Virus record (IMG/VR): IMGVR_UViG_2648501258_000001
Span: 1 to 64,000 of that record
Length of the DNA stretch: 64,000 nt
Reading direction: 5' to 3' (one strand)
From: a virus
Lineage: Duplodnaviria > Caudoviricetes
Shown here in pieces: positions 29,960 through 46,364 of this stretch; positions within the stretch are counted from its first letter, which is position 1, and each line of letters starts with the position of its first letter. The notes under the pieces were generated by a model, which saw only the letters and a list, made by a program, of their open reading frames with translations, had not been told where the DNA came from and did not search any database. The translations under genes were made by a program, and so were the position numbers.

Positions 29960-30531
29960 TAAATCTTCTCCTTCAATATGTTGACAATCTGTTCTCTTCG
30001 ACCTTTGGCAGTCTTTGCCGGAAAGTCGCAGCCTTTCCCGTTTGACACTATCCATTCCCTCACAGCGGCTACTGGAAGTTTGCAAATGGCAATAGCTTCC
30101 TTCTCAATCAAGGCGTCAACTATGGACATTCCAGAGCGTTCAGCATACGTCTTAGCTTTGTGACATGGTTTGCAAATAAGGCCAAGGTCTTTATTAGACA
30201 CGCACACAATACCCTCTACAAACGACTGGAGGTCTTCCAGCTTCCGTAGCGAGTGTTCTCCTGTAATGTGGTCAACTTCCATATCTTTCAACGCGAAGTC
30301 TTTACTGCACTGGTAGCATGTTCCTCCCCAAACTTCGGGGAACCGTGTACGGTTCTTCGCCACAGGGTTGATAATACGTTTCCTGTTTGCTTTCAGAAAC
30401 TCCAGTTTGATTGGACTCTTGTTCCAGAGGGAGCGGCGAATGCCGCCCCTCACATAGGACAAGAAGGCTGACTCTGTTTTCCAGATATGCTTGTGTTCTT
30501 CCCAAGGGGCCTTCTTTGAAGATTCCTTCAT
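29959..30531 (-). CDS. HNH endonuclease (conserved replication-region type)
   Basis: CYQC..EVDH...LICKPCHKAKT. Confidence 0.8.
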   Translation of the reverse strand: MKESSKKAPWEEHKHIWKTESAFLSYVRGGIRRSLWNKSPIKLEFLKANRKRIINPVAKNRTRFPEVWGGTCYQCSKDFALKDMEVDHITGEHSLRKLEDLQSFVEGIVCVSNKDLGLICKPCHKAKTYAERSGMSIVDALIEKEAIAICKLPVAAVREWIVSNGKGCDFPAKTAKGRREQIVNILKEKI

Positions 30532-30689
30532 TCACCAAACTCCGCAATTAATGCTTCATCTGTTGTCATGCCTTGACCGTGCATCTCTTCCCAAATAAAT
30601 GGTCGCATGGTGATGGAATTGTAAGCCGCTTGCCCGTACTCGAAGAAAGCTTTATCCTCAAGCTCATCCATCCAATCGTCAATATTCAT
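30528..30689 (-). CDS. small acidic hypothetical protein
   Basis: ATG after AGGAG. Confidence 0.5.
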   Translation of the reverse strand: MNIDDWMDELEDKAFFEYGQAAYNSITMRPFIWEEMHGQGMTTDEALIAEFGE

Positions 30690-34626: not shown

Positions 34627-35046
34627 TTAAACGCTAGGCTTCTGGTTGTCAAGCCAGTGACCAAGTTGTTTACGAATCTTTTTGACGTCTTCTGTTCGCA
34701 GACGAACGATCTGACCATCACCAGTACTACCTTCGCTCGTGGTGAAGTAGACGTATTCTTCACTGGACGCAGTATCCACTTCCAGATTGTCACCTTCGGA
34801 GTCTTCGTAGTGCGTCTCTTCGCCAACTTTAGGTGCTTTCACCTTGACCAGTTTCAGATCATCCACAACATAAGCATTGAAGATTTCCTCGCCCGGCCAC
34901 TGGACTCGGATAGGAAAAGAAATTGAATCTCTGGTTGCGGTAATAGTACCCTCAACGTCTGCTGGGTTCATTGTTCGATGCTTACCGTAAAACTGGCTCG
35001 ACTTACGAATTTTAACCTTGTCGCCTACTTTGAATTGCTTAGCCAT
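34627..35046 (-). CDS. SH3-like domain protein
   Basis: FKVGDKVKIRK; start at ATG 35046 after GGAGG. Confidence 0.7.
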   Translation of the reverse strand: MAKQFKVGDKVKIRKSSQFYGKHRTMNPADVEGTITATRDSISFPIRVQWPGEEIFNAYVVDDLKLVKVKAPKVGEETHYEDSEGDNLEVDTASSEEYVYFTTSEGSTGDGQIVRLRTEDVKKIRKQLGHWLDNQKPSV

Positions 35047-35070
35047 TTTGTATCCTCCGTTATATGTTAA

Positions 35071-35219
35071 TGGGGGCGGGAGCAGGACTCGAACCTGCAC
35101 GCTTTCGCTGTCCGTTTGGGGCCACTTGTAACCTGCTAAGCTACTCCACACCTCGATATGGAAAGCCTCATACTCTTGCAGACCCTTAGAACTTTGTCTA
35201 CCGATTCCATCATCCCGTC
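35071..35219 (-). ncRNA. tRNA-like RNA (Leu-type body, encoded CCA) with a 73-nt structured insert replacing the anticodon loop
   Basis: GACGGGA/UCCCGCC-C-CCA acceptor, GGAAUCGGUAGAC D-arm, GC-GAAA-GC variable arm, GCAGG-UUCGAGU-CCUGC T-arm. Confidence 0.8.
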
Positions 35220-35230
35220 TTGTTGGGGCC

Positions 35231-35258
35231 ATTCTACATGATCCTGACCCCGTGTCAA
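35231..35258 (-). promoter_or_regulatory. sigma70 promoter of the tRNA-like RNA
   Basis: TTGACA-16-TAGAAT with GC-rich discriminator. Confidence 0.85.
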
Positions 35259-35270
35259 CAATTTATTTTA

Positions 35271-37883
35271 TTAGTGGCAGCCTGCCCACGATTTTTCAAC
35301 AATGTACCCTGCTGTCAGGTCGATTGGCACAATCTCTGTGCTGTAGAACTGACCAGCCAACGATACAGCCTTCACAGCCAGCACGCCAGCTTCGCAGTAG
35401 GCCACGTACACGCCGTCACCCTTAGAAGCCTTGCTAATGTCAGACCACACCTTGCCAGTGGAAGCCTCTTCTGCATCCTTGAATGCCTGAGCCTCTTCCT
35501 TGGTTGCGAACCGCTTGAACTCGAACAGGGAAGCCGAGGCTTCGAGCTGTGCTTCGTCGTGGTACGCGATCATTTGCTGGCAAAACTTCTTGTTCTTCCA
35601 GTCGTCAAGGAAGAAGTCCACCGACAACCCTGCTTCCTTCAACAGAACATCGTGAATCACCATCGCACGCTTGGCACAGATAACCCCACCAGATTGGAAC
35701 AAGCTGTTCAAGATCGCATGTGCAGAACGTGTTGGCACACGACGACCGTCAATCCCGACAATGTACTTCTTACCATTAGCTTCCCACTCCCGTTGCAGTG
35801 TCTCTTTCAGCATCTTGAGCGGGAAAGCAGCATCCCAGAAAGCCTCAAACACTTGGTTGCCTGTTGTCAAGTCAGAACCAATAGTCTTAGCTACCTTCGC
35901 AGCCTGGGCACCATAGGTACAGCCATACTTCACGTTCTTAGCCGGACTACGACCAAACTCTCGCCCGATAATAGCACTAATGCTCTTAGCCATCATCGTG
36001 TGTACATCGAACGGTTTATCCAGCATCAGAGACTTGCAATACGCCCGGTCTACAGCATCGTACTGATCGCAATAAGCGCTTTCAATCCGAGCTTCCAAGC
36101 TATCGAAGTCATAACCGATCTGGAAGTAGCCATCAGAGACTCCAAACAGCGCTCTCAGCTCTTTGCCGTACAAGCTTGTAACACGAGGCACGTTCGCTAC
36201 AGATCGGTGCTTAAATCGGCTTGTAGCGGCTCCACATGTATCTGCTGGGGTTGGGATTCGGCCATCCTCACGGACGTTCGAAATATAACCCTTCTCTGGC
36301 TCTTCGTCTGGATCATCCCAATCAATACCCCCACCCAGGATCGAGTTACGGCGGTGCTTAAATGTCAGATACTCTACCACGTCCTTCGCAAATGGAAAGC
36401 TCTCAGAGATACGTTCCAAGTCGGGACACATATCTTTGTCCTGCCCCTTCGTAAAGCTAGGGTTGCTCAGTACCTTTAGGCCACGGCCACCACGTTCCAA
36501 CATAGCTTCAACAAGATTACGATCTGCTGGACGACGGTTAGGCCATAGGTGGGCCAAGCGGTCATCACGGAATGCAGTGGTTAGCGTCTGTTCAACGTAA
36601 CGTTCAATCGCTTCCTTGAATTTCTCAGGAGTCAGTTTAACCTTCTTGCTATCAACAGAAAGGTCTTTCTCTTTGTATTCACTTGGGTTCCAACCCAGAG
36701 ACACAAGCCAGTTCTTGATATGCGTGGTGTCGTCAATCGTAGCATCCATCTCAGTGACCAGAGGCACACCAGCTTCTAGTGGCAGCGAATACACCTTGCC
36801 CAACATCTCAACTGTACGAGTTTCAGGGTCATACACACCATCGTGCTTGACAATGAATTTCTCCATGTGAGCGGAGATTTCACCGTTCTTCTTGAACTGC
36901 GTCACTGGTGGAGTGTAGTTCTTCATGAACACTTGAGTTGCTGGTCGCTTAGGTAGAAGTGGTTCCACCTTAACGCGGCGCTCTTCCATCATTTTATCCA
37001 GCTCATCCAGGGCCTTATGTGCAAGCTCTCGATTGAAGTGGAAGCCACGGTGTTCTTGCCGTGTGATGATTTCAGCGATGTTGTGTTCAAGCTTAATTGC
37101 ACTCACCCACTTCATCAGCTCAGCCCGATCATTCAGGTTAGGGCCAGCTGTCTTGTGGTCAATCTTGTTCTTGGTGCCGTCCATCAAACCGAAGAATACC
37201 TCAGTGTTGGACTTAACGTCGAAAATACAGTAATAGAGCATATCCGCAGCAAAGTCACGGAATCGAATACTAACGTGCATGTGTTTACGGAAGGCGATCT
37301 TCTCGCTCATCCCACCAGACGCCAGCTTCTCTAGGGAGTGACCACCATAGCGGTCTGGGTTCAAACACTTACTCAGTGGGAGTGTGTCCCAGATTGCCAG
37401 CTTATTCCCACCCCATGTATCGCTGGTAAACGTTGTTAGACCACGATCCCGTACTTCATGACCAATTGTAAAATTGATGCCATAGGCCAGCTTGATAGCC
37501 ATCAAGTCATAACTGATTTGGTTATGAGCCACAAGACGACGAAACTTAGTCTTGAGGATGAAGTCTTTCAGCTCAGACATTTGACGGTGGGTGTACTCCA
37601 GTACCTCATACTCCCGCAAGAAGTAGGTCTCACCGTTGATTTCCTCGCAGTATTCCCGACCATCGAAAATATACTTCGGGCCATTGTGGAACGCGATGAT
37701 TTCACCAGTGAAATGGTTTTCAAAAACCACACAATGCATTGCGAAGTTGCCTTTCAGGCGATACGGGCTTGCCGTGTAGTCGATGGTGCGTTCGTTCAAG
37801 AGGTCGTTAGCCTCAATGTCCCAGGTCCAGTCGTCTGGATGTGCAAACTTGTTTGGTGCAAATGGTGGTTTAATCAGATTCAT
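35271..37883 (-). CDS. DNA polymerase, family A, with 3'-5' exonuclease
   Basis: WDIE, AHN..YD, YC..DV exo motifs; DFDSLEAR (A), R..AK...YG (B), YHDE (C). Confidence 0.95.
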   Translation of the reverse strand: MNLIKPPFAPNKFAHPDDWTWDIEANDLLNERTIDYTASPYRLKGNFAMHCVVFENHFTGEIIAFHNGPKYIFDGREYCEEINGETYFLREYEVLEYTHRQMSELKDFILKTKFRRLVAHNQISYDLMAIKLAYGINFTIGHEVRDRGLTTFTSDTWGGNKLAIWDTLPLSKCLNPDRYGGHSLEKLASGGMSEKIAFRKHMHVSIRFRDFAADMLYYCIFDVKSNTEVFFGLMDGTKNKIDHKTAGPNLNDRAELMKWVSAIKLEHNIAEIITRQEHRGFHFNRELAHKALDELDKMMEERRVKVEPLLPKRPATQVFMKNYTPPVTQFKKNGEISAHMEKFIVKHDGVYDPETRTVEMLGKVYSLPLEAGVPLVTEMDATIDDTTHIKNWLVSLGWNPSEYKEKDLSVDSKKVKLTPEKFKEAIERYVEQTLTTAFRDDRLAHLWPNRRPADRNLVEAMLERGGRGLKVLSNPSFTKGQDKDMCPDLERISESFPFAKDVVEYLTFKHRRNSILGGGIDWDDPDEEPEKGYISNVREDGRIPTPADTCGAATSRFKHRSVANVPRVTSLYGKELRALFGVSDGYFQIGYDFDSLEARIESAYCDQYDAVDRAYCKSLMLDKPFDVHTMMAKSISAIIGREFGRSPAKNVKYGCTYGAQAAKVAKTIGSDLTTGNQVFEAFWDAAFPLKMLKETLQREWEANGKKYIVGIDGRRVPTRSAHAILNSLFQSGGVICAKRAMVIHDVLLKEAGLSVDFFLDDWKNKKFCQQMIAYHDEAQLEASASLFEFKRFATKEEAQAFKDAEEASTGKVWSDISKASKGDGVYVAYCEAGVLAVKAVSLAGQFYSTEIVPIDLTAGYIVEKSWAGCH

Positions 37884-41193: not shown

Positions 41194-41204
41194 TTTATCG
41201 GGCC

Positions 41205-41232
41205 ATTCTACACTAGAACAGCCCCTTGTCAA
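41205..41232 (-). promoter_or_regulatory. sigma70 promoter of element B
   Basis: TTGACA-16-TAGAAT. Confidence 0.85.
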
Positions 41233-44832: not shown

Positions 44833-45231
44833 ATGACACATCAATACAAAGTAGGTGATCGCGTTAAACTGGTTACGAATGGTAGCTATCCCCACTACAA
44901 GCCAGGGATGGAAGGTACTGTAGTCGGCAAGTCCCGGCACGTAGGTGACGTAGTTGAGGTTGCTGTGGACGGGGATGCTAGATACCCAGAAGGCTTGAAC
45001 TTCTATCTCCGTGAAATCACTCCACTCGTAACGGACGAACTCTCAGACGTTGGAATTTTCTTCCTTATCCGTCAAAAGAAAGACGATCCTTCAAAAGTGA
45101 AGGTTTGCTGGGCAGAGTCAACCGTGTCCCGGATGTTCACTAGTCGGGAACGTGCAGAGATTGTTGCTAATCGTCAAAATTTAAACTACCCGGAGTGGAA
45201 CTACTTCGTTGTTGCAAAGGAGAGTGTATAA
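44833..45231 (+). CDS. SH3-like domain protein
   Basis: YKVGDRVKLV..GMEGTVV. Confidence 0.7.
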   Translation: MTHQYKVGDRVKLVTNGSYPHYKPGMEGTVVGKSRHVGDVVEVAVDGDARYPEGLNFYLREITPLVTDELSDVGIFFLIRQKKDDPSKVKVCWAESTVSRMFTSRERAEIVANRQNLNYPEWNYFVVAKESV

Positions 45232-46364
45232 TGGTTGAACATACTGAACGTAAACTGGCACGTATCGTCCTGATCGACTCCCTGCACCCAATCGAAGGTG
45301 CTGACCGTATCGAACTAGCAATGGTTGGTGGCTGGCAGGTTGTTGTGCAGAAAGGCTTGTATGTTCCCGGCAGTAAGGCTGTCTACTTCGAAGTAGATTC
45401 GTTGCTTCCATTGGATCGCCCATGCTTTGCGTCTCTGTCGGGTATCAGCTCGAAGCTGCAATTCGTCATCGACGGCCACCAGTATGCTCGCATAAAGACC
45501 ATGAAACTGCGTAAGCAGCTCTCTCAGGGCTTCTGTGTGCCTGCAAGCGAAGTGGTAGCCAGCCATTTGGATGTTGATACCGACATGACCAAAGCTCTCG
45601 GTGTGATCAAGTATGAGAGTGCTGGCGAGAAAGGTATGAATGGTACTCCTGGCATGAAGACTGGTTCTTCTGTGCTTGGCTTCCCGAAATTTATCCCGAA
45701 GACTGATCAAACTCGTTTGCAAAATATCCCTGTCCAGTTTGCACAGGCTCGGGACTCTGGTGAGCTGTTCGAGAAGACCTTCAAGCTTGATGGCTCTAGC
45801 CTCACTGCGTTCATTAAGGACGGCACCCTGGGAGTTGCATCTCGTAACGTTGGATTCCGGGTCAAGGATGAAATAATCCCACTGGTCACTGCCGTTAAGA
45901 GATTCTTGCAGGGTAAAGGCTGGAAGCGTGTAATCAAGGCAGATGATAATGCTTTCATTCAAATGGCAGAGAAGGCTGGCCTGCTGTCTGTACTGTCTCG
46001 GAAAGAAGTGGGGCTAGGTAATATTGCAATTCAAGGTGAAATGGTCGGCCCTTCCATTCAGAAAAACTTTGAAGGTGTTGCAGAGAACGAGTTCTACTGC
46101 TACGATATTTACTTGATTGATGAGCAGCGCTACATGCTCCCTAAAGAGCGTCAGGAATTCTGTAATAAGTATTACATCAGTCACGTTCCTCTGGCTTCTA
46201 ACCACGCTGTGACTCTGCCTGTGGATGTTGCATCTGCTATTGCTGACGCGGACGGTCCTAGCGGCCTGAAAGGTAAATACCGTGAAGGTTTTGTCTACAA
46301 GTCGATGACTCGTGACTTCTCGTTCAAGGTGATCAGTAACGCCTACTTGCTCAAGGAGGAATAA
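45231..46364 (+). CDS. RNA ligase (Rnl2/DRB0094 family) with N-terminal OB domain
   Basis: PIEGADRIE, PKTDQTR, KLDGSS (motif I), QGE, EGFVYK, SFKVISN. Confidence 0.9.
   Translation: MVEHTERKLARIVLIDSLHPIEGADRIELAMVGGWQVVVQKGLYVPGSKAVYFEVDSLLPLDRPCFASLSGISSKLQFVIDGHQYARIKTMKLRKQLSQGFCVPASEVVASHLDVDTDMTKALGVIKYESAGEKGMNGTPGMKTGSSVLGFPKFIPKTDQTRLQNIPVQFAQARDSGELFEKTFKLDGSSLTAFIKDGTLGVASRNVGFRVKDEIIPLVTAVKRFLQGKGWKRVIKADDNAFIQMAEKAGLLSVLSRKEVGLGNIAIQGEMVGPSIQKNFEGVAENEFYCYDIYLIDEQRYMLPKERQEFCNKYYISHVPLASNHAVTLPVDVASAIADADGPSGLKGKYREGFVYKSMTRDFSFKVISNAYLLKEE

What the first reader, a model, noticed from the sequence alone, without database searches (positions are those of the whole stretch)
35071..35258. 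A natural 'tRNA scaffold': tRNA body carrying a 73-nt structured cargo instead of an anticodon loop
Seen: a strong promoter drives a 149-nt RNA with a Leu-type D-arm, variable arm, perfect T-arm and encoded CCA. The anticodon stem (GUUC/GGAC) is extended by 73 nt that can fold into nested helices (GGGUC/GGCCC, CUGC/GCAG, UCCAUAU-CGAG-GUGUGGA). The discriminator is C and there is an A2-C71 mismatch, which argues against LeuRS charging (it needs A73). The insert is far too short for a group I intron. Inference: the tRNA shell may provide RNase P processing and stability for a functional cargo such as a decoy for anticodon nucleases or toxins. Alternatively it is an intron removed by a nuclease plus the phage RNA ligase; a CAA-A-C just before the 3' stem could give a Leu-CAA loop.
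Basis: partly seen in the sequence, partly recalled or inferred. Interest (0 to 1): 0.8.

Follow-up and report, generated by a model that had tools for sequence, protein, structure and literature searches.

The report
Anticodon-less tRNA-Leu look-alike phage RNA
A Pseudomonas-type phage carries a promoter-driven gene for an RNA that keeps the whole outer frame of a leucine tRNA but has 75 extra bases where the codon-reading loop should be, so it cannot decode; it is one more member of the little-studied 'tRNA-like stable RNAs' known from phage T5, and its job is still unknown.

Summary
On the minus strand, 35219-35071, a consensus-like promoter (11 of 12) is followed by a 149-nt RNA. It has a 7-position acceptor stem (one A-C mismatch), a tRNA-Leu-type D arm, a small variable hairpin, a perfect T arm and an encoded C-CCA. 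ARAGORN and Rfam do not call it. A covariance model built from six relatives, without the window, scores it at 50 bits (E 8e-13).

Relatives occur in Pseudomonas phages tf and Pyxpy01/02 and in four metagenomic contig types. Acceptor and T stems covary strongly. Every member has an abnormal anticodon arm, with loops of 7 to 75 nt.

The element is missing from the two closest relatives, which keep the same promoter and the same downstream gene. It therefore looks like an inserted cassette.

No single excision gives a normal anticodon arm, so the intron reading fails. The insert's fold is not better than chance, and no homologue of the insert was found, so 'cargo' is unproven.

The closest known thing is phage T5 RNA1, annotated 'tRNA-like stable RNA with unknown functions'. 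This scan has reported the same kind of RNA on other phage DNA before.

The parts
35231..35258 (-). Sigma-70-type promoter: TTGACA (35258-35253), 16-nt spacer, TAGAAT (35236-35231). The likely transcription start is about 35224-35223, which leaves a leader of only 4-5 nt.
   Evidence: 11 of 12 consensus positions. The same TTGACA-N16-TAGAATGGCC promoter occurs once more in the window, at 41232-41201. The promoter is conserved in relatives L018 and L026, which lack the RNA. The start site is inferred from spacing and not measured.
35071..35219 (-). The whole 149-nt tRNA-Leu-shaped RNA, from G1 to the encoded CCA.
   Evidence: R2, built without the window, scores it 50 bits, E 7.7e-13.
35213..35219 (-). 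Acceptor stem, 5' strand GACGGGA.
   Evidence: It pairs with 35081-35075 at 6 of 7 positions, with an A2-C71 mismatch. All 7 acceptor pairs show changes on both sides across the relatives.
35194..35210 (-). D arm of tRNA-Leu type (AUGGAAUCGGUAGACAA), with A14, A15, G18, G19 and A21.
   Evidence: Read directly from the sequence. Of 25 ARAGORN-called tRNA genes that carry this 19-mer, 22 are tRNA-Leu, 15 of them Leu(UAA).
35189..35192 (-). 5' strand (GUUC) of the 4-bp stem that stands where the anticodon stem should be.
   Evidence: It pairs with GGAC at 35113-35110. The same 4-bp register pairs at 23 of 24 positions in six distinct relatives, by my reading of the sequences.
35114..35188 (-). 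75-nt insert in place of a 7-nt anticodon loop. It has the closing helix GGGUC (35185-35181) / GGCCC (35123-35119) and a 13-bp hairpin with a CGAG loop (35168-35138).
   Evidence: The structure is predicted only: z = -1.09, and there are no relatives to test covariation.
35110..35113 (-). 3' strand (GGAC) of the 4-bp stem.
35099..35109 (-). Variable region AGCGAAAGCGU: a 2-bp hairpin with a GAAA loop, plus the U48 position just before the T stem.
   Evidence: Read directly from the sequence. The segment is identical in Pyxpy01.
35082..35098 (-). T arm GCAGG-UUCGAGU-CCUGC.
   Evidence: 5 of 5 pairs in the window. Two of the five pairs covary across the relatives.
35071..35081 (-). Acceptor 3' strand UCCCGCC (35081-35075), discriminator C (35074) and encoded CCA (35073-35071).
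34627..35058 (-). Downstream gene on the same transcript: RBS GGAGG (35058-35054), ATG at 35046, and a 139-aa ORF of unknown family.
   Evidence: no Pfam match. There is no terminator-like site between the RNA and the ORF; the first one follows the ORF at 34615-34596. Relatives L018 and L026 have the same gene right behind the same promoter, without the RNA.
35271..37883 (-). Upstream gene: family A DNA polymerase, 870 aa.
   Evidence: annotated as DNA polymerase in phages ventosus, UAVern and Bitten.

Best explanation
This is a real, expressed-looking gene for a non-decoding tRNA mimic of the phage T5 RNA1 kind. A tRNA-Leu gene, most likely of the UAA type, lost its working anticodon arm but kept everything that makes a tRNA fold and mature.

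Proposed course:
1. Host RNA polymerase starts at the early-type promoter a few bases upstream (inferred).
2. RNase P cuts at G1. An endonuclease plus 3' trimming free the encoded CCA end from the downstream mRNA (inferred from the intact acceptor/T helix, T loop, G18 G19 and CCA).
3. The result is a stable, L-shaped 149-nt RNA. With a 4-bp stem and a 75-nt loop it cannot read a codon (shown from the sequence). With C73 and an A2-C71 mismatch it is probably not charged by LeuRS (rule recalled, not tested).
4. I think the shell itself is the active part. It would occupy a host factor that recognises the tRNA body, for instance a tRNA-targeting defence enzyme, while staying off the ribosome. The insert would be a lineage-specific add-on.

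The element arrived as a small cassette inserted between an existing promoter and the ribosome-binding site of the next gene.

Odds: about 0.8 that it is a functional non-decoding tRNA-like RNA gene; about 0.4 that the shell rather than the insert is what acts. The confidence given for this explanation (0.4) is for the full statement, including the shell-as-mimic step.
For: Frame and membership:
- R2, built without the window, scores it 50 bits, E 7.7e-13.
- In 7 family sequences, 98.0% of 98 pair cells are paired, against 78.8% in shuffles and 37-50% when the partners are slid. Nine of 14 pairs change on both sides; 0 of 500 shuffles reach this.

Abnormal anticodon arm in every member:
- The same 4-bp register pairs at 23 of 24 positions in six distinct relatives, although their acceptor stems are entirely different. 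The odd arm is therefore old and maintained, not fresh decay.
- Loops range from 7 nt (L008, L011) through 22-29 nt (Pyxpy01, L126, tf) to 75 nt (window).
- Only 2 of 8 loci tested against Rfam just reach the tRNA cut-off: 29.9 and 31.2 bits against 29.

Cassette-like insertion:
- L018 (95% DNA polymerase identity) and L026 (91%) keep the promoter and the downstream gene but lack the RNA.
- Pyxpy01 against KIL1 shows the same pattern.
- The RNA sits in five different gene contexts, all in Pseudomonas-phage-like DNA.

Precedent: T5 RNA1 has the same frame (acceptor 6 of 7, identical GGAAUUGGUAGAC, T arm 5 of 5, a large insert between) and is annotated as a stable RNA.

Conflict setting: the phage has its own 19 tRNAs and an RNA ligase gene.
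Against: - There is no evidence that the RNA is made. No sequencing run could be listed, and no transcript data exist for any member.
- Only one copy of this insert is known, so nothing shows selection on it or on this particular copy.
- The acceptor stem has a mismatch at 2-71.
- The identical D arm among relatives is partly an artefact of how I found them: the search pattern was that D arm.
- The family is small: 7 distinct sequences. Among 174 pattern hits, 142 had no tRNA context.
- No partner protein is identified, and no tRNA-Leu-specific defence enzyme of Pseudomonas is known to me.
- The discriminator varies (C, A, U) and 3' tails differ (one member has no CCA), so no single end chemistry is conserved.
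- Members without cargo argue for the shell, but they do not exclude that larger inserts have acquired functions of their own.
Confidence: 0.4

Rival explanations
1. Natural tRNA scaffold. The tRNA shell only provides processing and stability. The 75-nt insert is the working part, for example an aptamer or decoy for a host or phage protein, or an antisense RNA.
For: The insert contains a long, nearly perfect 13-bp hairpin and a closing helix. Relatives carry different structured inserts of 22-29 nt at the same site. Earlier notes of this scan describe phage tRNA-Leu shells with interchangeable inserts (not checked by me beyond T5 RNA1).
Against: L008 and L011 have the same shell and 4-bp stem with only a 7-nt loop, so they carry no cargo. 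The insert's fold is not better than chance: z = -1.09, 23 of 200 shuffles. No homologue of the insert appeared in the phage records or in IMG/VR by an exact 21-mer. A DNA search of 51 genomes of one Pseudomonadaceae genus gave no significant match, best E 0.04 per genome.
Confidence: 0.2
2. Relic. This copy is a dead tRNA-Leu gene, disrupted by a 75-nt insertion and carried along because it arrived recently. It has no function of its own in this phage.
For: The copy is unique and absent from relatives with 91-95% DNA polymerase identity. It has the A2-C71 mismatch and C73. The insert has no detectable relatives. The insert weakly resembles the RNA's own variable/T-arm segment (87 of 1000 shuffles score as high), as a botched duplication might. 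L139 and L076 show that broken or partial tRNA-Leu copies do occur in phage-like contigs.
Against: All tertiary-contact positions and 21 of 22 checked stem pairs (acceptor, D, 4-bp, variable and T) are intact. The abnormal 4-bp arm is shared with relatives whose acceptor stems have fully diverged while staying paired; random decay would not give that. The element sits directly behind a strong promoter in a compact genome.
Confidence: 0.17
3. 5'-UTR processing element. The tRNA shape serves the downstream mRNA. RNase P and 3' cleavage remove the leader and set the mRNA's 5' end, stability or translation, as in tRNA punctuation.
For: In six of the seven family sequences the RNA sits between a consensus-like promoter and an RBS plus ATG 15-40 nt downstream; in tf and the tf-like L146 I saw the downstream RBS and ATG but no such promoter within the 60-70 nt shown upstream. 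No terminator lies between the RNA and the ORF in the window.
Against: The downstream genes are unrelated in the different phages. The closest relatives express the same gene from the same promoter and RBS without the element. Any small insert in a compact phage genome must land between a promoter and a gene.
Confidence: 0.08
4. Intron-bearing real tRNA. The insert is cut out, with the phage RNA ligase resealing the ends, and a decoding tRNA-Leu results.
For: The phage encodes an RNA ligase (PF09414, 76 bits). The insert lies in the anticodon-loop position, where tRNA introns are found.
Against: 0 of 8 possible 17-nt arms and 0 of 8 possible 15-nt arms left by a single excision have U33 and a purine at 37. 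The fifth stem pair would be U-C. At 75 nt the insert is far below group I intron size, and no intron family matched at E up to 10. Relatives have abnormal 7-nt loops with no insert at all. Discriminator C73. The phage already has tRNA-Leu(CAA) and tRNA-Leu(UAG).
Confidence: 0.03

Closest known systems
Phage T5 RNA1 (AY543070 30501-30644, misc_RNA 'tRNA-like stable RNA with unknown functions'); RNA2 is annotated the same way
   Same: It shares the Leu-type frame: acceptor helix 6 of 7 paired, D arm with the identical GGAAUUGGUAGAC, GU before a 5-bp T stem, and a large non-tRNA segment between D arm and T arm instead of an anticodon arm. The family model matches it end to end at 33.9 bits. Its function is also unknown.
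   Different: T5 RNA1 lies inside the tRNA gene cluster and has no encoded CCA. The window's RNA stands alone in a 5' UTR after the DNA polymerase gene, 40 kb from the phage's tRNA cluster, and encodes CCA. The inserts are unrelated. Sequence similarity is limited to the tRNA frame, and ordinary tRNAs such as T5 tRNA-His score nearly as high with the same model (31.2 bits). Common descent of the abnormal arm is therefore not shown.
Class II bacterial and phage tRNA-Leu, especially tRNA-Leu(UAA)
   Same: Acceptor, D arm, A15/U48, variable hairpin and T arm are shared. The 19-nt D-arm word of the element occurs in 22 ARAGORN-called tRNA-Leu genes of metagenomic and viral contigs, 15 of them Leu(UAA). 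These genes score 57-66 bits with the family model.
   Different: The element has no 5-bp stem with a 7-nt loop and no U33. It has C73 instead of A73, and it is not detected by ARAGORN or Rfam.
Phage T4 stable RNAs C and D (rnaC, rnaD)
   Same: They are small stable RNAs transcribed from a phage tRNA region, with unknown biological roles. I read one passage of the review PMC3014915. That they are tRNA-like is my recollection.
   Different: I did not fetch or compare them here. They lie in the tRNA cluster.
tmRNA, and bacterial YrlA/Y RNAs and other tRNA mimics
   Same: These are RNAs that keep part of a tRNA shape for a non-decoding job. For the 2026 preprint on skipping-rope, DUF2693-FD and salivarius-1 RNAs I read the abstract only.
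   Different: ARAGORN's tmRNA mode finds nothing, pair 3-70 is C-G rather than G-U, and no Rfam family matches. YrlA has its ends on the anticodon side and works with Ro60; this phage has no TROVE gene.

Membership tests
Decoding tRNA (Rfam RF00005; class II tRNA-Leu) | Acceptor stem of 7 pairs, discriminator, CCA end | tested here: met
   6 of 7 positions paired (A2-C71 mismatch), C73, CCA encoded.
Decoding tRNA (Rfam RF00005; class II tRNA-Leu) | D arm with G18 G19 and T arm with a UUCRANY-type loop (the elbow) | tested here: met
   D arm AUGGAAUCGGUAGACAA and T arm GCAGG-UUCGAGU-CCUGC. Which positions make tertiary contacts is recalled, not computed.
Decoding tRNA (Rfam RF00005; class II tRNA-Leu) | Anticodon arm: 5-bp stem and 7-nt loop with U33 and a purine at 37 | tested here: not met
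   A 4-bp stem encloses 75 nt. 0 of 16 single-excision products restore the arm.
Decoding tRNA (Rfam RF00005; class II tRNA-Leu) | Recognised by tRNA detectors at their normal thresholds | tested here: not met
   ARAGORN finds 0 genes, also with introns allowed. Rfam finds 0 at gathering scores. At E up to 10 only tRNA-Sec at 17.2 bits, against a cut-off of 47.
Decoding tRNA (Rfam RF00005; class II tRNA-Leu) | A73 discriminator, the main LeuRS identity element in E. coli (recalled) | tested here: not met
   C at 35074. Charging itself is not testable here.
T5 RNA1-type tRNA-like stable RNA | Leu-type acceptor/D/T frame with a non-tRNA segment replacing the anticodon arm | tested here: met
   for T5 RNA1; for the window.
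T5 RNA1-type tRNA-like stable RNA | Accumulates as a stable processed RNA in infected cells | not testable with these tools
   No run could be listed; this is no evidence either way. For T5 I have only the GenBank wording 'stable RNA'.
Pseudomonas-phage shell subfamily (tf, Pyxpy01/02, L008, L011, L126, L146) | Shared frame scored by a model that excludes the candidate | tested here: met
   R2: 50 bits, E 7.7e-13, full length; next best hit in 64 kb scores 15 bits.
Pseudomonas-phage shell subfamily (tf, Pyxpy01/02, L008, L011, L126, L146) | 4-bp stem directly after nucleotide 26, with A plus the variable hairpin directly after its 3' strand | tested here: met
   Window GUUC/GGAC, 4 of 4 paired. 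Relatives pair at 23 of 24 positions by my reading; no tool counted this.
tRNA with group I intron | Intron of about 200 nt or more with a group I core, and a canonical arm after splicing | tested here: not met
   75 nt; no Intron_gpI match at E up to 10; no canonical arm after excision.
tmRNA | Alanine-type acceptor (G3-U70), tag reading frame, detection by ARAGORN or Rfam | tested here: not met
   Pair 3-70 is C-G. ARAGORN -m finds nothing and Rfam finds none. An 11-codon AUG...UAG frame inside the hairpin lacks a credible ribosome-binding site; I take it as chance.
YrlA / Y RNA | Ro60 (TROVE) partner, with the RNA ends on the anticodon side | tested here: not met
   No TROVE match in the 97.6-kb genome; the control rang in 2 of 14 genomes. 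The ends of this RNA are at the acceptor.

The most novel reading that the evidence does not exclude
A small family of tRNA-Leu shells moves as a cassette between unrelated Pseudomonas phages and lands just behind active promoters. It would work as an RNA anti-defence: an uncleavable tRNA look-alike that binds and blocks a host tRNA-targeting immune enzyme. The anticodon arm would be deliberately wrecked, or replaced by inserts, so that the mimic neither gets cut nor enters the ribosome.
Probability: 0.15. Interest if true: 0.85.

Novelty: new member of a known kind. Interest (0 to 1): 0.55.

Why it matters
Phage T5 (and, as I recall, T4) were shown decades ago to make stable tRNA-like RNAs. 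For T4's RNAs C and D a 2010 review still calls the biological roles unknown (one passage read).

This element, with its relatives in the culturable phages tf (host P. putida) and Pyxpy01/02, offers a simpler test bed:
- There is a single copy per genome.
- It lies outside the tRNA cluster and behind its own promoter.
- Natural 'empty-site' sister phages exist (KIL1-type phages, and contigs L018 and L026).

The series from 7-nt to 75-nt loops on one shell asks directly whether the shell or the insert is what matters.

There is also a practical point. Such genes are invisible to ARAGORN and mostly to Rfam. The tf genome paper states that tf has no tRNA genes (passages read). Phage annotations therefore miss this class.

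Tried and rejected
- tRNA detectors: ARAGORN default, with introns, and with lowered thresholds. The lowered thresholds gave only implausible models that do not use the 35219-35071 frame.
- Rfam at gathering scores and at E up to 10.
- tmRNA mode.
- Thermodynamics: the whole RNA has z = +0.37 and its minimum-energy fold is not the cloverleaf. The constrained cloverleaf gives -37.3 against -42.8 kcal/mol. I take this as uninformative, since such gaps are, as I recall, common for true tRNAs.
- Search for the insert elsewhere: blastn of the 225-nt intergenic stretch against 50,697 phage records gave nothing over the insert. An exact 21-mer of the hairpin gave 0 hits in IMG/VR. A DNA search of 51 genomes of the genus of a Pseudomonas abyssi record gave a best E of 0.04 per genome, which is chance level. 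That genus may not be the host's, so this says little.
- Expression: no RNA holder was listed, and no run of any kind was listed. This is not evidence either way.
- Origin of the insert by internal duplication: against the 5' half there is no similarity (928 of 1000 shuffles score as high). Against the 3' half there is a weak match to the variable/T segment (87 of 1000). Not significant.
- Target-site duplications: boundary-adjacent direct repeats of 7 nt (Pyxpy01; 60 of 2000 shuffles) and 6 nt (L011; 250 of 2000). There were none in the window, L008, tf, L146 or L126. This does not establish a mobility mechanism.
- Recent copy of the phage's own tRNA-Leu genes: rejected. They score 30 bits or less with the family model.
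- Y-RNA reading: no TROVE gene. Phage CCA-adding enzyme: none.
- Literature: seven valid searches. The term sets were tRNA-like / Pseudomonas phage / anticodon; tRNA-like / bacteriophage / stable RNA / unknown function / anticodon; rnaC / rnaD / bacteriophage T4; phage tf; Pyxpy01; phage / tRNA mimic / noncoding RNA / anti-defense; and tRNA-like / phage-encoded / anticodon nuclease / decoy. They returned no paper describing this RNA or a function for T5 RNA1-type RNAs. This covers only the open-access library. Supplementary tables were closed, including Table S1 of the tf paper, which may list features near position 2.8 kb.
- The census is limited. Relatives were found with one exact 19-nt D-arm word, so shells with other D arms were not sampled. 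The collections could not be searched with the covariance models.
Full report
WHAT IS THERE

The feature lies on the minus strand between the stop codon of an 870-aa family A DNA polymerase gene (35271-37883) and the start of a 139-aa ORF (ATG at 35046). A sigma-70-type promoter, TTGACA-16 nt-TAGAAT at 35258-35231, matches 11 of 12 consensus positions.

Five bases after the likely start site begins a 149-nt stretch, 35219-35071, that reads as a class II tRNA frame:
- acceptor GACGGGA/UCCCGCC, 6 of 7 positions paired, with an A2-C71 mismatch;
- U8 G9, then the D arm AUGGAAUCGGUAGACAA;
- a 4-bp stem GUUC/GGAC;
- A, then the hairpin GCGAAAGC, then GU;
- T arm GCAGG-UUCGAGU-CCUGC;
- discriminator C and an encoded CCA.

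The 4-bp stem encloses 75 nt (35188-35114).

No terminator-like site separates the RNA from the ORF. The first one follows the ORF at 34615-34596, so the RNA would be the 5' part of that transcript.

IS IT MORE THAN CHANCE?

Standard tools miss it:
- ARAGORN finds no tRNA in the 64 kb, and none at default stringency with introns allowed.
- Rfam has no match at gathering scores.
- At E up to 10 Rfam gives only a 17.2-bit partial tRNA-Sec match, against a cut-off of 47.

I therefore built a covariance model from six relatives without the window sequence (A5, R2). It matches 35219-35071 end to end at 50 bits, E 7.7e-13. The next best hit in the window scores 15 bits and lies in what looks like coding sequence. 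The tRNA frame is real.

The insert is a different matter. Folded alone it gives a closing helix and a 13-bp hairpin, but z is only -1.09 and 23 of 200 shuffles fold as well. The whole RNA has z = +0.37.

RELATIVES

A blastn search of the intergenic stretch against 50,697 phage records matched its 3' half (80.5% over 82 nt) to Pseudomonas phages Pyxpy01 and Pyxpy02, again just after the DNA polymerase gene.

I then scanned for the 19-nt D-arm word. It gave 8 loci in IMG/VR, 106 in metagenomes and 60 in genomes. I examined all 174 occurrences:
- 22 are ARAGORN-called tRNA-Leu genes: 15 UAA, 5 UAG, 2 CAA.
- 3 are one repeated element that ARAGORN calls 'tRNA-Phe(aaa)' (L011 = L012 = L143).
- 7 have a T arm but no call. 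Four of these are family members: L008, L009 (which is phage tf), the tf-like L146, and L126. L074 is ambiguous. L076 has an unpaired acceptor. L139 is a 5' tRNA-Leu fragment in front of a complete tRNA-Leu(UAA).
- 142 have no tRNA context.
- None of the 60 genome hits is a member.

With the window this makes 7 distinct sequences. Because the search word was the D arm, its invariance among them is by construction.

CONSERVATION

On the 7-sequence alignment, 98.0% of 98 pair cells in the acceptor, D and T stems are paired. Shuffles give 78.8%, and sliding the partners gives 37-50%. Nine of 14 pairs change on both sides, including all seven acceptor pairs. 0 of 500 shuffles reach the observed values.

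All members share a 4-bp stem in the same register, directly after nucleotide 26. By my reading of the printed sequences it pairs at 23 of 24 positions in six distinct relatives.

The enclosed loop varies widely:
- 7 nt in L011 (UUAAAAC) and L008 (CUAAUAC);
- 22-24 nt in Pyxpy01 and L126;
- 29 nt in tf;
- 75 nt in the window.

The window's loop ends (UAA ... AAAC) resemble the 7-nt loops.

Only L011 (29.9 bits) and L074 (31.2 bits) just reach Rfam's tRNA cut-off of 29. Pyxpy01, L008, tf, L146, L126 and the window do not.

The abnormal arm is shared by members whose acceptor stems have completely diverged while staying paired. It is therefore old and maintained. That argues against simple decay for the family.

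AN INSERTED CASSETTE

The two closest relatives by DNA polymerase, L018 (95%) and L026 (91%), keep the same promoter (TTGACA...TAGAATGGCCCC) and the same downstream gene (MAKQ...). Between them they have only 22-27 nt where the window has the RNA. A model search of L026's whole genome and of phage ventosus finds only ordinary tRNAs.

Pyxpy01 shows the same pattern against KIL1-type phages: the promoter is conserved and the RNA is absent.

In phage ventosus an endonuclease VII gene sits at this junction instead.

The members lie in five gene contexts:
- after the DNA polymerase gene (window, Pyxpy01);
- after a ribonucleotide reductase beta gene (L126);
- before a band-7 lipoprotein gene (L008);
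- in the early region of tf;
- in a contig like phage SYP (L011).

In each context the nearest matches are Pseudomonas phages.

Short direct repeats flank the element in Pyxpy01 (7 nt) and L011 (6 nt) but not in the other five sequences. I do not claim a mobility mechanism.

WHAT IT IS NOT

Not an intron-bearing tRNA:
- None of 16 possible single excisions leaves an arm with U33 and a purine at position 37.
- 75 nt is far below group I intron size, and no intron family matches.
- The cargo-free relatives are abnormal too.
- The phage already has tRNA-Leu(CAA) and tRNA-Leu(UAG) among 19 tRNAs at 75.1-79.4 kb of its 97.6-kb genome.

Not a tmRNA (pair 3-70 is C-G).

Not a Y RNA: there is no TROVE gene, and the RNA's ends are at the acceptor.

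Not a fresh copy of the phage's own tRNA-Leu genes, which score 30 bits or less with the family model.

CLOSEST KNOWN

A note from earlier in this scan pointed me to phage T5, and I checked it. The T5 record annotates RNA1 (30501-30644) and RNA2 as 'tRNA-like stable RNA with unknown functions'.

RNA1 has the same frame:
- acceptor 6 of 7 paired;
- the identical GGAAUUGGUAGAC in the D arm;
- GU before a 5-bp T stem;
- a long foreign segment in between.

The family model aligns to it end to end at 33.9 bits. That score is no higher than for some ordinary T5 tRNAs. I therefore claim the same build, not proven common descent.

A 2010 review states that the roles of T4's small RNAs C and D are unknown (one passage read).

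The tf genome paper says tf has no tRNA genes (passages read), so the tf member is unannotated.

HOW IT MOST LIKELY WORKS

Shown:
- a promoter;
- an intact tRNA frame with every stem needed for the L shape;
- an encoded CCA;
- an arm that cannot decode;
- family-level selection on the frame;
- sporadic, cassette-like occurrence.

Inferred:
- transcription by host polymerase early in infection;
- 5' maturation by RNase P and 3' release from the mRNA;
- a stable, uncharged RNA (C73; the A73 rule for LeuRS is recalled).

Two members have no insert at all. I therefore think the shell is the active part: a tRNA mimic that occupies some host factor recognising the tRNA body, while being kept off the ribosome. 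The insert would be a lineage-specific addition. Three things fit a conflict function but do not prove it: the sporadic, host-genus-linked spread; the phage's own tRNA set; and its RNA ligase gene (45195-46364).

My odds are:
- about 0.8 that this is a functional non-decoding tRNA-like RNA gene;
- about 0.4 for shell-as-mimic;
- 0.2 for insert-as-cargo;
- 0.17 for a relic;
- 0.08 for a 5'-UTR processing role;
- 0.03 for an intron.

NOVELTY AND VERDICT

The kind is known (T5 RNA1) but unexplained and uncatalogued. This scan has reported anticodon-less tRNA-Leu shells on other phage DNA several times.

What is new here:
- a small Pseudomonas-phage group of such RNAs;
- a stand-alone position behind a borrowed promoter, with clear empty sites in sister phages;
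- a graded series of loop sizes on one shell;
- members in culturable phages.

Nothing shows yet that any member is transcribed.

Noticed in passing
own genome G000 78383-78460 and 78920-78996 (minus strand; outside the window): The phage's two ARAGORN-called tRNA-Leu genes (anticodons UAG and CAA) are only 78 and 77 nt long with a 5-nt variable loop. That is a class I build, unusual for leucine tRNAs. The related phage behind L026 has ordinary long-armed tRNA-Leu(UAG) and tRNA-Leu(CAA).
   Followed up: partly
own genome G000 76662-76808 (minus strand; outside the window): A weak family-model hit (11.5 bits) lies between tRNA-Asn and tRNA-Ile. Its 3' two-thirds reads like a tRNA with a CAU anticodon loop, a good T arm and ACCA, but with an odd D region. 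ARAGORN does not call it.
   Followed up: partly
window 41201-41232 (minus strand): The only other copy in the window of the promoter type TTGACA-N16-TAGAATGGCC (0 expected by chance). Another first-reader note flags a gene-less structured stretch just downstream of it.
   Followed up: no
window 45195-46364 (plus strand): A 389-aa protein with an RNA ligase domain (PF09414, 76 bits) and a PHA02142 OB-fold domain (83 bits). The phage therefore has RNA-sealing capacity.
   Followed up: partly
L005 2452-2561 (Pyxpy01) and L011 340-446: Direct repeats abut both ends of the tRNA-like element: 7 nt in Pyxpy01 and 6 nt in L011. In L011, and probably in tf, the apparent CCA lies three bases further out than normal and is part of such flanking sequence.
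   Followed up: partly
L001 2130-2585 (phage ventosus): In ventosus the junction just after the DNA polymerase gene holds an annotated recombination endonuclease VII gene. The window and Pyxpy01 hold the tRNA-like RNA there, and other relatives hold nothing. This junction seems to collect insertions.
   Followed up: no
L139 about 2680-2830 (metagenome contig): The 5' acceptor strand and D arm of a tRNA-Leu are followed directly by a complete tRNA-Leu(UAA). This is an example of partial tRNA duplication in phage-like DNA.
   Followed up: no
L074 1617-1704 (gut metagenome contig): A Leu-type frame whose anticodon stem is made almost entirely of G-U pairs and whose loop has G where U33 should be. 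ARAGORN does not call it, and it scores 31.2 bits against the Rfam cut-off of 29. It may be a further non-decoding shell outside Pseudomonas phages.
   Followed up: partly
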